A DNA stretch of 64,000 nt from an uncultured Gemmatimonadales bacterium (GCA_963844035.1 CAWJMT010000037.1:192001-256000), one strand, 5' to 3'; numbered from the stretch's first letter, positions 27,001-36,000 are shown. Program-made: the numbers.

Positions 27001-30000
27001 GGCTCCTACCAGTTCAACGCCGCCCCCGTCGCCGACACGGCGTTCTACATCCGCGCGCGCGGCAACAATCCGCGCGGCGAATACTTCCTGCTCGAGAACC
27101 GCCAGGCGTCTCAGTCCGACACCGCGATGATCCGCTTCCGGTGCCAGCGCAGCAGTGCACCCGCCTCGTGTCCCGGGGGGTTGCTCATCTGGCACATCGA
27201 CTCCCTCAAGGTCGCGAACGGATCCTTTGGTAACTCCGTCAATTCCGGCGCAATTCACGGTGTCGCGCTGATGCAGGCGGATGGGTTGCGCGATCTCGAT
27301 TTCGGGCAGAATCGTGGTGATGCCGGGGACGCCTACCCGGGGATCGCCAGGCCCAGCACGCCGTCGCCCAGGAATCCGAACGTGGAGTTCTCGGTTACCT
27401 CGACGCCTGCGGCCAGGAAGAATCTCGACAGCAGCTCGGTGGGCTTTGCGCTTGACTCGATCCGCCAGCTCGTGCCCGGCGCGTTGATGCGGTTCCGACT
27501 CCGGTTCGGCCAGCCGCTCGTCTTCACGGCTACAGCCCATGGCACGGTCACTCCGAATCCGGTGAGCGCCACGAGCGGATCATTCATCGCAGAGTCCAGC
27601 ACGGTGACGCTGACCGCGGCCACGGATCCGGGGTACATCTTCGCCGGCTGGACCGGGGACACGTCGACGATCAATACGGATCTCGTGCTGACCATGGTCG
27701 CGGCCCTATACGGTGACGGCGAACTTCGGCACGGCCCTCAGCGTCACGAGCGGCGATACGCTGCCGGGTGCGTCGATGGGAACGGCATATCTGGACACCC
27801 TGCGCGCGAGCGGCGGGACCGGCGCCTACACGTGGCAGCTCGTGGGAGCGGCGCCGCCGGCACTCGCACTGTCCGCGAGCGGCGTCATCACGGGGACTCC
27901 CTCGCAGGTCGGGACCTTTTCGCTGCAGGCGCGGGTGACGTCGGGCGCCCTGCAGCAGACGCACACGTTTACGGTGACCACCACGGCCCCGACGTTGGCG
28001 ACGGCCGCTGTGCTGGCGAAGCTGCTGACGGGCACGGGCCCGCTGACGGCGGGGCACGTCACGTACCTCGACCTGATCGGCAACCACAACGGGGATCTCG
28101 ACGTGGGCGATTTCGTGGCGTGGGTGAACCTGACGGGCGCCCCGGCGCCGCCGGGACCGCAATGAAGCGCGTGCTCCTGGCTGTCCTGATCGCGTTGTCC
28201 GGCGCGTGCGAGCACAACACCGCGCCGGTCGCGGGGCTCCTGCGGGTGCAACTCACCACGCCGAACAGCGGCGGTGATCGCGCGATCCTTGTGTCGGTCT
28301 CAGGGCCTGCGGCGCTCACCAGCATCGCTGCCCCGAGCGCGCTGCGGGTGTTTTCGTACCCGCCGTTCGGTACGACGAACAAGTTCGTGGTGACGGGGAC
28401 CATCCCCTCCGGCACCATCCTGACCATCGGTGTGGCCGACGTCGGTCAAGCGGGCAGTTACACCGCGACCGTCCAGCAGGCGGCGACGCCGACCTACCAG
28501 CTGCGGGACCTCGACGGGCTACTCCCTTACCGTCGCGCCGTAGCGCTGCGGGATCCGCCGCGTAACGCCGCCGCCTTCCGGGTGACCTCGGTTGTGAGCG
28601 CGGCGTAGGAGGCGGAGAACTTTGCCACGCCCTCGGTTTCAAGCTCACCAGTCACTCGCTCCAGATCGAAGCCGCCGCCGGCCAGTGTGGCGAGGCGCCG
28701 TCGCGCTTCCGAAATGGCGTGGGGTGTGACCCGCACCGCCGGCTCCCCGTGATCGCTGTAGGCCTCGAGGGTTTCCGGCGGCAACGTGGTGACCGTGTCC
28801 GGTGCGATGAGCGCCTCCACGTAGTAGACATCGGGAAGCGTCGGATCTTTCGTCGCGGTGGACGCCCACAGCGGTCGCTGCACGCGGGCACCCTCGCTCG
28901 CCAATGCTTCCCAGCGGGGCCCGCTGAACGTCTCCTGAAACGCCTGATACGCGACGAGGGCATTGGCGATCGCGATCGTGCCGCGCAAGTCGCGCAGCGC
29001 GGCGGAGCTCGAAGCGGCCAGCAGGGGATCGAGCTTCGTGTCCAGCCGGCTGACGAAGAAACTTGCGGCCGCCGCGATCCCGGCGATCGGCTCGCGTCGG
29101 GTGCGGCGCATGTTCGAGGCCCGTCAGGTAGGCGTCCATCACTGCGCGATGGCGGGCACCGGAGAACAGCAGCGTGACGTTGACGTTGATCCCGCGGCTG
29201 AGGCAGTAGGTGATCGCAGGAAGCCCGGCCACCGTACCCGGAATCTTGATCATCACGTTGGGGCGGTTCACGGCGTCCCACAGGCGGCGCGCTTCGAGCA
29301 CGGTGCCGTCGGTGTCGTGCGCCAGCGCGGGCGCGACCTCGATCGACACGAAGCCGTCGCGGCCGCCGCTGTCGTGGTAGAGCGCCAGGAATGCGTCACA
29401 CGCGGCCCGCACGTCCGACACCGCTAGGCGTTCGACAATTTCTGGGGGCGTGTGGCCGGACTCGGCAAGCGCGCGGATGTCTGCGTCGTAGCGGTCGCTG
29501 CCCGCGACGGCCTTCTCGAAGATGGTGGGGTTCGTGGTCATGCCCCGAACGCCGGCGGCGATCAGGCGGTGCAGCTCGCCCGTCTGCAGCAGGTCGCGCG
29601 TGATGGAGTCGAGCCAGGGGCTCTGGCCAAGCGCGCCGAGTTGAACGAGCGGATGCGGCGCCATCAGACCCTAGCGAATGTCCTCCGACCGCCTCGCCCG
29701 CCTCCGCGCGCAGGCCCTCCTGTTTGAGGACCAGGGCGCTCGCCTTCACCAGGTAGTAGGTGAGGACGAGCTGCGTGACCGCGAGCGAGTTCGAGCGCCG
29801 CTCGCGATCTCCGTCGTGAAACACGCCGAGCCGGTCGGAGCGCAGATGGCGCGCGTTGGGCATGTGGTCCCACATGCGGTTTTCGATCGCCTGCGTGGCG
29901 GCGTTCGAGAGGCAGCCGTTGATCTCGAGCACGTCGACCCCTTGGGCGCCGCGCTCGAGCTTGACGGCCGCGCGTCCGTCGGGTCCTTCGGCCGCCGCGA

Positions 30001-33000: not shown

Positions 33001-36000
33001 GCGGAAGTCGCCGCCGGGTTCGTCGATCTCGATGCCGCGTACCGCGGATCGAACATCGAGGCGGTACTCCAGGATCTGGAGCTGGAGCTCATCGGGCTGG
33101 CGCCCGTCAAGCGACGCATCCGGGAGATCGCCGCGTTGCTGCTCATCGCGCGTGTGCGTGAAGAGCAGAGCCTCGTCACCGAAAAACCCACGCTGCACAT
33201 GTCGTTCACGGGGCATCCGGGGACGGGCAAGACCACCGTGGCGCTCGAGATGGCCAAGATCCTCCAGCGCCTCGGCTACGTGCGGAAGGGCCATCTGGTC
33301 GTGGCCACGCGCGACGACCTGGTGGGCCAGTACGTCGGCCACACGGCGCCGAAAACCAAGGAAGTGATCAAGCGGGCGATGGGGGGCGTGCTCTTCATCG
33401 ACGAGGCGTACTATCTCTACCGCCCGGAGAACGAGCGGGACTACGGCCAGGAAGCGATTGAGATGCTGTTGCAGGCGATGGAGAATCAGCGGGACGACCT
33501 CGTGGTGATCCTCGCGGGTTACAAGAACCGCATGGAGACGTTCTTCCAGTCGAACCCGGGGTTCCACTCGCGCGTCGGCAACCACCTCGACTTTCCCGAC
33601 TATTCGCTCGATGAGCTGATGGAGATTGCGGAGCTGATGGTGAAGCGCCAGCACTACGAATTCGATGCGGCCGCGCGAGACGCGTTCCGTCAATATCTGA
33701 CGCTGCGGATGCCGCAGCCGCATTTCGCCAATGCCCGCAGCGTCCGCAACGCGCTCGATCGGATCAAACTTCGCCAGGCCAACCGCCTGATGGCGGCTCG
33801 CGGGCTCGTTTCCAAGGATGATCTCGCCCGGCTCGACGCCGCCGATATCCTCCAAAGTCGCGTCTTCCAAGGAGGGAACGACGGTGTCGGCGACGAATAG
33901 GGTGACACCGCTGCCGTTCCGGGCGGGCCGTCCCATCATGCTCGGCCTCGTCGGGGACTCCGGGGCAGGGAAATCGACGTTGTCGAACGGGTGCGTGGAG
34001 ATCCTCGGGGCCGACCGGGTCACGGATATCTGCCTCGACGACTACCACTCGCTCGACCGCGTCGGGCGGGCGGAGCGCAAGATCACGGCGCTCCATCCCG
34101 ACTGCAATCACCTCGATCTGATCCGCCAGCATATCCGCCTGCTGCGCGGGGGCGAGCGGATCTTCAAGCCGGTGTACGACCACACCGACGGCACCTTCGG
34201 TCCGCCCGAGTTCGGGATTCCGCGGGACATCGTCCTGGTGCACGGCCTGCACACGCTGTACACCCCGGGGCTGCGGCAGCTGTGGGACGTCTCGGTGTTC
34301 CTCGATCCCGACCCGGAGCTGCGGATCGACTGGAAGATCAAGCGGGACATGTCGAAGCGCGGGTACACCCGCGACGAGGTGTTGAAGCAGCTCGAAGACC
34401 GCCGTCACGACTCCGAGGCGTACGTGATGCCGCAGCGTGAGAAGGCGGATATCGTGGTGGCCTTCTCCCCGGGCCCCCAGTATGCGACGACGCGCGACAG
34501 CGCCCGGCTCAACGTGCGCATCGTCATCCGGCACCCGGTGCCGCTGCCCGATCTGGAGGATGCGCTCACGGTGGCCGGCGAGGAGAATGGCGGGCCCTAT
34601 TTGAAGCTGCACCGCGGCGCCGAGGGGACCGATTCGCTCGAGATCAGCGGTGCGATCAGCGACGCGGCGACCCAGTCCATCGAGCGCCGCCTCTGGAACC
34701 ACATGCAGACGGCGCCGAACCTCCGGGCCGACCGGGTGGGCGTCTTCATGGACGGCGCCACCGAGCGGCGCTCGAACCCGTTGGCGGTGACGCAGTTGGT
34801 GCTGACCTACTACCTGGTGAAGGCGACTGCCCTGGTGCTGAAGCAGGAGCAGCTGCGCCAGGAGGCAGCCGAGGTGGCGTTGGGCGGAACGCCGTGACGG
34901 TCGGAGGGGTACCGAGCCGCATGATTTTATCGCGGCAACGTTTCATCCCGGTGCTCCTTGTCATGCTTCTGGGGGGGTCGTGCGCACCACGTCCCCAGAT
35001 GGCCCCGCGGGGGCCGATGCCCGACGTCGCCAACATGGTGCCCGTTCGCGCGCGCACCGTGTACCGCGAGATGGGTCTGATGGTCGATACGTCGCGCCTG
35101 CCCTTCGTGGCCTCCGTGCGATACCTCGCCAGCGCCTCTCCCGACTCCACACTGCTCCTTTTCGCGATGTCGCTGGCGAACCGGGCGTTGAACTTCCGGC
35201 GCGACAGCAGCGATATGGTCGCTGACTACCACGTCGAGCTGACCGTCCGGAGCGACAGCAACATCGTCCGCCAGGTCAATCGGGACGAGAAGGTGCGCGT
35301 TCGATCGGTTGCCGAGACGATGCGGCGCGATGAGAGCATCATCTTCCAGCAAATCCTCGTGGTACGTCCCGGGATCTACACGGTGAGCGTCGTGGCGCGG
35401 GACCGCACCAGCCCGGCCTACGCCCATTTCCAGCTGCTCGACACGGTGCCGCAGTTCGGCACGCCCGGGCTGGGCTGGCCGTTGCCGATCTACGAGGGAG
35501 CGGGGCGCACGCGGCAGACGCTCATGCCCGAGCTGGTGGCCAATCCGCGGGGGGCGACGCCGTATGGGGAATCGGCCCGCTTCTACGTGGAGGGCTACGG
35601 GTTTGCGCGGGGCACCCGGGTCGCGGCGCGGATCGTCGATCTCGACAGCGTCGAGCTGTGGCGGGACACACTCACGTTCGCGGATGGCCCGCTGGCGACC
35701 GTGCAGTTCGTGGTCAAGCCGGGCGTGCTTCCCGTCGGCCGCGCGATGTTCGAGGTCCACGCGGTCGGAGGCACGGCGCACACGGTCACGCCGCTCCTGA
35801 TCACGTTCTCGGACGGGTGGGCGGTGCAATCGGTTCGAGCAGACGGTGGATTTGCTGCGCTATTTCCCCCGCCAGGACCTGGTGGCGACCCTCAGGGCCG
35901 CGCCACGCGAGCAGCGGGCGGCGGCGTGGCGGGAATTCTACCGGGCGAGCGATCCGACGCCCGCCACCCCGCAGAACGAGCCGCTCGACAAATACTTCCA

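What a model noticed while it worked through the whole genome (the two positions that open the first line are those of the whole stretch)
28527..34897. Calvin-cycle genes under Rex (NADH sensor) boxes instead of CbbR
The form I RuBisCO cluster (tal-prk divergent from rbcL-rbcS-cbbX-prk) has no CbbR. Rex operators (TTGTGAA-N4-TTCACAA type, one mismatch each) sit about 30 nt before prk (C37:222685) and about 20 nt before rbcL (C37:223038). The same box precedes rex itself and both ATP synthase operons, so CO2 fixation here is predicted to be de-repressed by high NADH.
Evidence so far: Genome scan: the only sites with 0-1 mismatch are rex (C12:1682, C23:49478), atp F0 operon (C4:120496), prk and rbcL; atpA has 2. 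Same cassette in relatives: box before rbcL in 5 of 7 loci (G032, G336, G060, L051, L052), before prk too in the three with the divergent layout; absent in G041 and L053. Three Gemmatimonadota loci with the proteobacterial cbbP cassette carry a CbbR LysR and no box; blast with those CbbRs finds nothing in the seven Rex-type loci and only a weak LysR fragment far away on C31 of this genome. In relatives the 0-1 mismatch sites also mark rex, atp and cydA. Two literature searches found no Rex-cbb link.
(Added by a program. Inside this text positions count along the whole contig: contig position 192,001 is position 1 of the stretch shown here. "Call 12" and the like, gene names such as g00115 and contig names such as C1 are that model's own, and its searches are not shown. 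The text may have been shortened before it was handed on; [...] marks where a part breaks off. The agent that wrote the report below was given it as the finding of a first reader that could run no searches.)

Follow-up and report, generated by a model that had tools for sequence, protein, structure and literature searches.

The report
NADH-sensor gate on CO2-fixation genes
In a group of uncultured Gemmatimonadales bacteria, the CO2-fixing (RuBisCO) genes have no nearby copy of the usual regulator CbbR and carry conserved DNA boxes of the NADH-sensing repressor Rex at both predicted promoters, so they are likely switched on only when the cell has surplus reducing power, probably together with a second, undescribed activator.

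Summary
Confirmed and extended. Two 17/18 Rex operators lie 29 nt before prk and 18 nt before rbcL of a form IE RuBisCO cassette. The only other 0-1-mismatch sites in the genome precede rex (two copies) and atpI. In an otherwise diverged spacer the boxes are near-invariant: present in 7 of 12 form IE Gemmatimonadales genomes and in 0 of 80 form IE loci of other phyla. No CbbR was found.

(1) Both promoters also carry CCACCC-N4-GGGTGG sites just upstream of the -35. These likely bind a NarL-type regulator whose sensor-less two-component pair sits beside the cassette in 5-6 relatives and lies unlinked in this genome. The control is therefore probably activator AND Rex, and Rex alone only in one sub-lineage.
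(2) The genome has a true CRP, whose core the rbcL box also fits. Inner bases, position and regulon content favour Rex.

Binding is untested, and three indels here look like read errors. My literature searches found no Rex-cbb report. The scan had not reported Rex-cbb on other DNA; it had noted an analogous NAD(P)-domain sigma-54 activator at acidobacterial form IE genes.

The parts
28527..29664 (-). transaldolase (tal), one extra base near 29111
   Evidence: PF00923 and PRK03343 hits in two frames; break located against intact relatives
29671..30655 (-). class II (cyanobacterial-type) phosphoribulokinase, copy A; the stop is out of frame through an indel in the last codons
   Evidence: PRK07429 340 bits, cut-off 236; relatives end at 327-330 aa; 75% identical to copy B
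30685..30702 (.). Rex operator of the prk-tal arm
   Evidence: 1 mismatch; identical in 5 of 5 genus-g1 genomes and in 16 of 16 metagenome loci with divergent prk
30713..30741 (-). predicted weak sigma-70 promoter of prk (-35 TAGCGG, 17 nt, -10 GATCAT)
   Evidence: read by eye from aligned relatives, coordinates; not called by the consensus scanner
30742..30780 (-). predicted activator sites of the prk arm (proximal 30742-30757, distal 30765-30780, 7.9 bits)
   Evidence: a CYACCC half-site is visible 55-80 nt before the box in the 15 non-redundant prk-side sequences printed, with matrix scores from negative to 8.5
30949..30964 (.). distal CCACCC-N4-GGGTGG site of the rbcL arm (12.2 bits), likely bound by a NarL-type regulator
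   Evidence: motif learnt without this genome; the region ranks 6 of 3336 upstream windows; present at -89 to -92 from the box in 13 of 15 non-redundant loci
30984..30999 (.). proximal weak site (5.4 bits) abutting the -35
30999..31028 (+). predicted sigma-70 promoter of rbcL (-35 TTGCGC, 18 nt, -10 TATGCT)
   Evidence: conserved blocks in a diverged spacer; below the scanner's threshold
31038..31055 (.). Rex operator of the rbcL arm, 9 nt behind the predicted -10, 4 nt before the RBS
31074..32532 (+). RuBisCO large subunit, form IE; one extra base near 32125
   Evidence: PRK04208; tree; catalytic motif present; break located
32549..32977 (+). RuBisCO small subunit
   Evidence: PF00101
32974..33900 (+). 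CbbX activase
   Evidence: TIGR02880 484 bits, cut-off 459
33902..34897 (+). class II phosphoribulokinase, copy B
   Evidence: PRK07429 340 bits

Best explanation
Both arms of this CbbR-less form IE Calvin-cycle cassette carry a conserved Rex operator at the predicted transcription start, so Rex likely represses them at low NADH/NAD+ and releases them when NADH accumulates, while a NarL-type two-component activator probably binds the second palindrome upstream of each predicted -35, which would make an AND gate. Shown: the boxes, their rarity and conservation, an intact Rex, no CbbR found, the second motif, and linkage of the kinase/regulator pair to the cassette in relatives. Inferred: the promoters, Rex binding and its release by NADH (from established Rex biochemistry), which protein binds the second motif, and the physiology. 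CO2 fixation would run when electrons are in surplus (H2 oxidation through the membrane hydrogenase, or oxygen-limited heterotrophy), serving both carbon gain and NADH disposal, probably through the transaldolase variant of the cycle.
For: Rarity. Footprint in diverged spacers. Box before rbcL in 7 of 12 form IE genomes of the order, from 3 genera and 2 families, and within 500 nt of rbcL in 0 of 80 form IE loci of other phyla, 57 of which have a CbbR-like gene in the locus. A box-plus-RBS pattern gave 21 metagenome loci: 20 run into rbcL and one ends at the contig edge; all 16 with divergent prk also hold the prk box, which was not part of the pattern. In relatives the same box marks rex, atpI, atpA, nuoA, an ActA/QrcA-like cytochrome and cupredoxins, a typical Rex regulon. 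Rex passes NCBIfam cut-offs, matches solved Rex structures at E 1e-50 and keeps the recognition-helix R/K and wing G-x-R-G residues described in PMC8836258. Footprinted Streptomyces operators carry the same two deviations (PMC5355995). Second motif: found de novo in 6 upstream regions from outside this genus, log-likelihood 61 against 23-26 in 5 shuffles, then found in held-out genus-g1 loci. The kinase is present in 11 of 12 form IE genomes; the one without it (G251) also lacks the sites. Sites of 12 bits or more lie before leuA in 5 of 11 relatives with the kinase (plus this genome) and 0 of 9 without. G345, which has no rbcL, keeps the pair, a remnant prk-like gene and a site 172 nt before it. 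The remaining cycle enzymes were found in this genome, as was a group 1 membrane hydrogenase.
Against: No binding, start-site or expression data. 5 of 12 form IE genomes lack the box, and four of these were scanned and have rex with a perfect box, so Rex control is dispensable. The sigma-70 scanner calls no promoter here. The genome has a CRP with a canonical recognition helix and the rbcL box contains a perfect CRP core. The kinase occurs in 35 sampled genomes without rbcL and is unlinked here, so it is not cbb-specific. The strict second motif also occurs in genomes without the kinase (G038 3 hits against 2 in the control, G017 1 against 1). Several aceA-side sites lie within the upstream gene's coding end. 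Relatives are not independent, and the metagenome pattern selected for the rbcL box. The hydrogenase has no Rex box and was not found in 8 of 15 RuBisCO genomes. This bin is 84% complete and has three indels in the cassette.
Confidence: 0.66

Rival explanations
1. Rex alone controls the cassette; the upstream GC-rich palindromes are relics or chance.
For: The kinase/regulator pair is unlinked in all five genus-g1 genomes. Some g1 sites are weak (4-6 bits). The G251 type manages without the pair or the sites.
Against: Distal site at a fixed position in 13 of 15 diverged loci, above the 95th percentile of the null, and the other two have a 9.9-bit proximal site. Weak -35 elements suggest activator dependence (inference). 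The same arrangement occurs before leuA.
Confidence: 0.14
2. The boxes are CRP-family (cAMP) sites, and the cassette is under carbon-catabolite rather than redox control.
For: A CRP with cAMP-pocket and SRETVSR motifs lies at C35:194568 (the motif reading is recalled). The rbcL box has a perfect TGTGA-N6-TCACA core, and relatives hold other such cores that are not Rex-type.
Against: In all 7 genomes found by rbcL search the box has the Rex-specific inner A..T, the outer T and an AT-rich spacer, like the boxes before rex, whereas the other cores vary there. The prk box breaks the CRP core. The position is behind the -10, not at an activating distance.
Confidence: 0.07
3. Rex gating is real, but the second motif belongs to another global regulator, not to the linked NarL-type pair.
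For: The motif also marks aceA, leuA, amtB, coxB and a thiolase. Strict matches occur in genomes without the kinase. An earlier scan note reports a further NarL-type motif in this genome (e1-10534201, not checked).
Against: Co-loss of pair and sites in G251, co-retention in G345, and three sites plus an adjacent orthologous pair in a Vicinamibacteria locus; among the 80 outside loci only that one has two or more sites before rbcL.
Confidence: 0.1
4. The palindromes act as RNA hairpins at the 5' end, or the cassette here is decaying and the boxes are vestigial.
For: The boxes lie in the predicted leader. There are three indels in this copy, and a degraded second copy in G473 keeps its box (L118).
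Against: No compensatory changes in the arms across 19 non-redundant sequences. The genes are intact in relatives. Frame breaks affect 9 of 29 distinct genes tested across this assembly.
Confidence: 0.03

Closest known systems
Rex regulon of Streptomyces avermitilis (PMC5355995, abstract and passages read)
   Same: Consensus TTGTGAA-N4-TTCACAA, operators at or just behind promoters, autoregulation, atp and nuo operons as targets, the same tolerated deviations.
   Different: The passages read list respiratory, developmental and secondary-metabolism targets and no Calvin-cycle genes. Here RuBisCO, activase, PRK and transaldolase are in the predicted regulon, in a phylum for which my search found no Rex regulon paper.
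CbbR plus RegA/RegB control of cbb operons in Rhodobacter sphaeroides (PMC4806589, passages read)
   Same: Two-layer control of cbb genes, one layer redox-linked; the cycle is used for redox balance.
   Different: There redox is read from the quinone pool by RegB, and NADH is proposed to act indirectly (PRK activation, RuBP, CbbR). Here no CbbR is found, NADH would be read directly at the promoter by a repressor, and the two-component pair is NarL/HisKA_3-type without a sensor domain.
Form IE RuBisCO cassettes of Actinomycetota, Acidobacteriota and Verrucomicrobiota (PMC9561532, passages read)
   Same: RbcL nests among them; rbcL-rbcS-cbbX with class II prk.
   Different: 57 of 80 fetched loci have a CbbR-like gene and none has a Rex box at rbcL. 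The passages read list 8 phyla for form IE, without Gemmatimonadota.
Acidobacterial sigma-54 activator with an N-terminal Rossmann domain beside form IE rbcL (scan note e1-3897154)
   Same: CbbR-less form IE cassette with a probable nucleotide-sensing regulator; seen here in 3 of 8 acidobacterial loci examined.
   Different: An activator of another family and a sigma-54 promoter; ligand unknown; only faint likeness to the Rex NAD domain.
PRK plus RuBisCO as an engineered NADH outlet in yeast (PMC3766054, start of abstract only)
   Same: CO2 fixation used to dispose of excess NADH in a heterotroph.
   Different: Engineered and not sensor-controlled; an analogy only.

Membership tests
Rex regulon | Rex protein with N-terminal winged helix and C-terminal NAD-binding domain | tested here: met
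   PF06971 and PF02629, NCBIfam Rex above cut-off, PDB Rex at E 1e-50
Rex regulon | DNA-reading residues (recognition-helix R/K, wing G-x-R-G) and nucleotide-site Tyr kept | tested here: met
   alignment read against PMC8836258 passages
Rex regulon | Operator matches TTGTGAA-N4-TTCACAA and is rare and conserved | tested here: met
Rex regulon | Same box before rex and respiratory/ATP synthase operons | tested here: met
Rex regulon | Operator overlaps or follows the promoter | tested here: inconclusive
   9-10 nt behind predicted -10 hexamers; promoters unmapped and missed by the scanner
Rex regulon | Binding released by NADH | not testable with these tools
   needs EMSA
CbbR-regulated cbb operon | LysR-type cbbR beside the operon or in the genome | tested here: not met
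   no hit at E<=1e-10 in G000, G078, G133, G176, G251, G061, G359 with a Gemmatimonadota CbbR; an actinobacterial CbbR query gave no hit in G000; the bin is 84% complete
CbbR-regulated cbb operon | T-N11-A LysR boxes at the promoter (recalled) | not tested
   too degenerate to scan
Form IE RuBisCO | RbcL groups with form IE lineages; rbcS and cbbX adjacent; catalytic motif | tested here: met
   the form label rests on the phyla listed in PMC9561532, no labelled references were in the tree
Form IE RuBisCO | Intact reading frame in this genome | tested here: inconclusive
   extra base near 32125; intact in relatives; breaks are common in this assembly; no run of this very strain was found
CRP regulon | CRP protein present | tested here: met
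CRP regulon | TGTGA-N6-TCACA core at both promoters, in an activating position | tested here: not met
   core perfect only at rbcL; both boxes lie behind the predicted -10
NarL-type two-component system | HisKA_3/HATPase kinase and receiver/GerE regulator | tested here: met
NarL-type two-component system | Sensor domain on the kinase | tested here: not met
   213-252 aa, no Pfam domain before HisKA_3
NarL-type two-component system | Regulator binds the CCACCC-N4-GGGTGG motif | not testable with these tools
   only co-occurrence

The most novel reading that the evidence does not exclude
Gemmatimonadales rewired a form IE Calvin cycle into an NADH-gated circuit. CbbR is gone, a sensor-less NarL-type pair activates a carbon regulon (cbb, aceA, leuA, oxidase genes), and Rex opens both cbb promoters only under reductive overload, so RuBisCO works in these bacteria chiefly as an electron valve. 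In one sub-lineage Rex is the only switch, and sister acidobacterial cassettes arrived at nucleotide sensing separately through a sigma-54 activator.
Probability: 0.4. Interest if true: 0.82.

Novelty: new variant of a known kind. Interest (0 to 1): 0.67.

Why it matters
Bacterial Calvin-cycle operons are almost always described under CbbR, with redox read indirectly. Direct gating by the NADH/NAD+ sensor Rex would be a new regulatory logic for CO2 fixation. It would also speak to an open question: whether form IE RuBisCO in uncultured heterotroph-like bacteria supports autotrophy or redox balance. It can be tested without a culture (one 206-aa protein and two 18-bp boxes), and it offers a natural NADH-responsive promoter for engineered RuBisCO bypasses.

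Tried and rejected
- CODH as the electron source: no match in genus g1, G251 or G061, and 3 of 15 genomes match only below the cut-off.
- Photosynthetic reaction centre: 0 of 5 genomes.
- An incomplete cycle ('shunt only'): class I FBPase was not found in 4 of 5 g1 genomes, GlpX in none and the archaeal-type FBPase in none. A PFK of the same length and start is present in 5 of 5, and the two tested score as the PPi-dependent type. A full cycle therefore stays possible and the shunt-only idea is unsupported.
- A sigma-54 reading of the conserved TTGC: no GG at the -24 distance in the three sequences that I counted by eye.
- The 2-mismatch site at C4:231188 lies inside a coding sequence and was dropped. 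The 2-mismatch sites at the AT-rich end of C4 (26-36% GC) were treated as foreign DNA.
- The G251 match to the second motif overlaps the 3' end of a tRNA-Leu gene and was treated as chance.
- Sequencing runs: the best holders share only 0.21 of the words. Contigs of relatives in 3 DNA runs and 1 RNA run cover parts of the cassette but show neither starts, levels nor this strain's frames, so they were not used as evidence.
- Literature: no Rex-cbb link among the listings (2 papers; 20 of 2,997 listed; 2 papers; 0; 14 papers, no description of this pair seen).
- The comparative Rex paper PMC3294762 is not held. I saw only its citation in PMC5317091, so its regulon tables and supplements, and RegPrecise-type databases, could contain a cbb target that I could not see.
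Full report
Observation. The window holds tal and prk on the minus strand and rbcL-rbcS-cbbX-prk on the plus strand. Both PRKs are class II and 75% identical. The 418-nt spacer contains two 18-bp palindromes with one mismatch each to TTGTGAA-N4-TTCACAA, 29 nt before prk and 18 nt before rbcL. That consensus is printed in PMC5355995 and PMC5317091 (passages read). 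In the 3.47-Mb bin only five sites have 0-1 mismatch: two before rex, one before atpI, and these two; atpA has a 2-mismatch site. Among 210 permuted palindromes of the same letters this one ranks first, 5 against a mean of 0.095. The two rex copies sit on near-duplicate contigs. Rex is intact and typical.

Frameshifts. rbcL (near 32125), tal (near 29111) and the last codons of the divergent prk each carry an indel. Nine of 29 distinct genes tested across the assembly show frame breaks (counted) and relatives are intact, so read error is likely. No run of this strain was available to prove it.

Identity and spread. RbcL was found in 14 of 401 genomes of the order and 9 of 401 of the phylum. In a 41-row tree, 12 order sequences nest with Acidobacteriota, Verrucomicrobiota and Actinomycetota, the form IE lineages of PMC9561532 (passages read), while G181, G480 and G600 fall outside (G000 and G176 are partial rows). 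G181 and G480 have a divergent CbbR-like LysR and no box. Of the 12 form IE genomes, 7 have the box before rbcL (all five of genus g1, G251, G473) and 5 do not (G061, G359, G425, G290, G443). Four of these five were scanned genome-wide and have rex with a perfect box. All seven boxes share the same terminal deviation, which suggests one origin with losses; two gains are not excluded. None of 80 form IE loci from other phyla has a box within 500 nt of rbcL, and 57 have a CbbR-like gene. That scan covered 5 of 64 parts of the collection, and I did not test whether those genomes encode Rex. A CbbR query found nothing at E<=1e-10 in 7 of 15 genomes, including G000, G078, G133, G176 and G251; G460 and G473 gave only weak LysR hits.

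Footprint. In five g1 genomes the spacer differs in length and sequence except for short blocks: the prk box, TTGCGC-18 nt-TATNNT, and the rbcL box 9 nt behind it. A metagenome scan for box plus RBS gave 21 loci, 20 running into rbcL; all 16 with a divergent prk also have the invariant prk box, which was not in the pattern. The pattern selects for the rbcL box, so these loci say nothing about its frequency. The sigma-70 scanner called no promoter; the -35 elements are weak. Footprinted operators in S. avermitilis carry the same two deviations. In relatives the box also marks atpI, atpA, nuoA, an ActA/QrcA-like cytochrome, cupredoxins and clpX. Reversed-pattern controls gave 0-2 sites against 4-10.

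CRP rival. The Rex box contains TGTGA-N6-TCACA, and the genome encodes a CRP. Five relatives hold 39 perfect cores, a mix of Rex-type and other types. The rbcL box has the inner A..T, outer T and AT-rich spacer of the rex boxes in all 7 genomes, the prk box breaks the CRP core, and both lie behind the predicted -10. Rex is much the better fit, but added CRP binding at rbcL is not excluded.

Second layer, new here. A HisKA_3/HATPase kinase without a sensor domain and a NarL-type regulator lie beside the cassette in G061, G473, G359, G443, G290, probably G425 (contig edge), and a Vicinamibacteria locus. This genome has the orthologous pair at C4:235845-237166 (73% and 69% identical to G061), unlinked. 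The kinase occurs in 47 of 401 genomes: 11 of 12 form IE genomes, G480 (weakly), and 35 without rbcL. In genus g79 some rbcL-less genomes keep the pair at the same place, two with a remnant prk-like gene. A de novo palindrome search on six upstream regions from outside g1 gave CCACCC-N4-GGGTGG. In held-out data the G000 spacer ranks 6 of 3336 upstream windows. After removing near-duplicates (19 of 27 kept), 13 of 15 g1-type loci have a site 89-92 nt before the box, above the null's 95th percentile, and the other two have a strong site abutting the -35. The prk arm mirrors this more weakly. Four loci of the tRNA-Leu-adjacent type keep promoter and box but lack the sites, and G251, the one with a genome, lacks the kinase. 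Among the 80 outside loci only the Vicinamibacteria one (a training sequence) has two or more sites. The motif also precedes leuA (5 of 11 with kinase, 0 of 9 without), aceA (5 of 7 against 0 of 5, confounded by coding overlap), amtB, coxB and a thiolase. Against: strict matches in kinase-less G038 and G017 near control level, none in G078, G196 and G027, and kin are not independent. The assignment to this regulator is inference.

Physiology. Besides the cassette the genome has tkt, rpe, class I aldolase, rpiB, pgk, gap and tpi motifs (recalled motifs), class I FBPase and a PPi-type PFK. Transaldolase in the cassette fits the S7P-forming transaldolase variant, which needs no SBPase (PMC8927339, passages read). 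A group 1 membrane [NiFe] hydrogenase with cytochrome b occurs in 4 of 5 g1 genomes, without a Rex box. No CODH or reaction centre was found. From established Rex biochemistry, NADH would release the repressor, so fixation would be allowed when reductant is plentiful: on H2, or under oxygen limitation as an electron sink. Sequence cannot separate these two uses.

Comparison. In R. sphaeroides cbb genes answer to CbbR and RegAB, and NADH is proposed to act indirectly through PRK and RuBP (PMC4806589, passages read). Known Rex targets in the papers that I saw are respiratory, fermentative or developmental (listings; passages). Searches showed no Rex-cbb link; the main comparative Rex paper and its supplements could not be read. 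An earlier scan note (e1-3897154) described a sigma-54 activator with a probable NAD(P) domain at acidobacterial form IE genes. I saw such a gene in 3 of 8 acidobacterial loci, with a sigma-54 motif in 2, which hints at convergent nucleotide sensing but is not independent proof.

Verdict. Real, conserved and apparently unreported: a known repressor on a new class of target, most likely combined with an undescribed activator. I put Rex binding at about 0.85 and the full two-layer model at about 0.66. New variant of a known kind; interest 0.67.

Noticed in passing
G000 C4:235845-237166 (L150:8858-10119): Sensor-less HisKA_3 kinase plus NarL regulator with a predicted regulon (cbb, leuA, aceA, amtB, coxB, thiolase; in this genome also an ActA-like gene at C37:189691). 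It may be an undescribed carbon-status regulator of Gemmatimonadales.
   Followed up: partly
G345 C1:1002376-1003312 (L264) and G364 (L178): Genomes without rbcL keep the regulator pair beside a diverged prk-like remnant, in G345 with the motif upstream: a trace of cassette loss.
   Followed up: partly
G473 C8:481652-481750 and C44:14182-14285 (L256, L257): A 62-aa unknown ORF has the same dual arrangement: second motif 81-86 nt before a perfect Rex box.
   Followed up: no
G473 C6 (L118): A degraded second cbb copy beside a transposase-like gene still keeps the Rex box.
   Followed up: no
L028, L031, L032: Acidobacterial form IE rbcL preceded by a sigma-54 activator with an N-terminal Rossmann-like domain; sigma-54 motif seen in L031 and L032.
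   Followed up: partly
L038-L105 (many actinobacterial loci, e.g. L039:3726-5548): A different NarL-type regulator plus a longer kinase (about 390 aa) recurs inside actinobacterial form IE clusters beside CbbR.
   Followed up: no
L075:11075-11119: Two Rex boxes at the start of a whiB-family gene near an Acidimicrobiia cbb cluster; a whiB-type gene (wblE) is a known Rex target in Streptomyces.
   Followed up: no
G000 C12:177-5525 and C23:47999-53303: The rex region is present twice at 87-97% identity, suggesting two strains in the bin.
   Followed up: partly
G000 C4:410000-455565: GC falls to 26-36% against 67%, with its own gap and pgk: likely foreign or mis-joined DNA.
   Followed up: no
relatives' rex genes (L121-L125): The Rex box overlaps the rex start codon (its last A is the A of ATG), implying a leaderless or near-leaderless autoregulated transcript.
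   Followed up: no
G000 C4:300483-300940: Leucine-rich leader peptide and terminator-like stretch before leuA (attenuator-like), with the second motif before its -35.
   Followed up: no
window 37741-37813 and 39546-39618: Two tRNA-Ala(tgc) genes 1.8 kb apart, downstream of the cassette.
   Followed up: no
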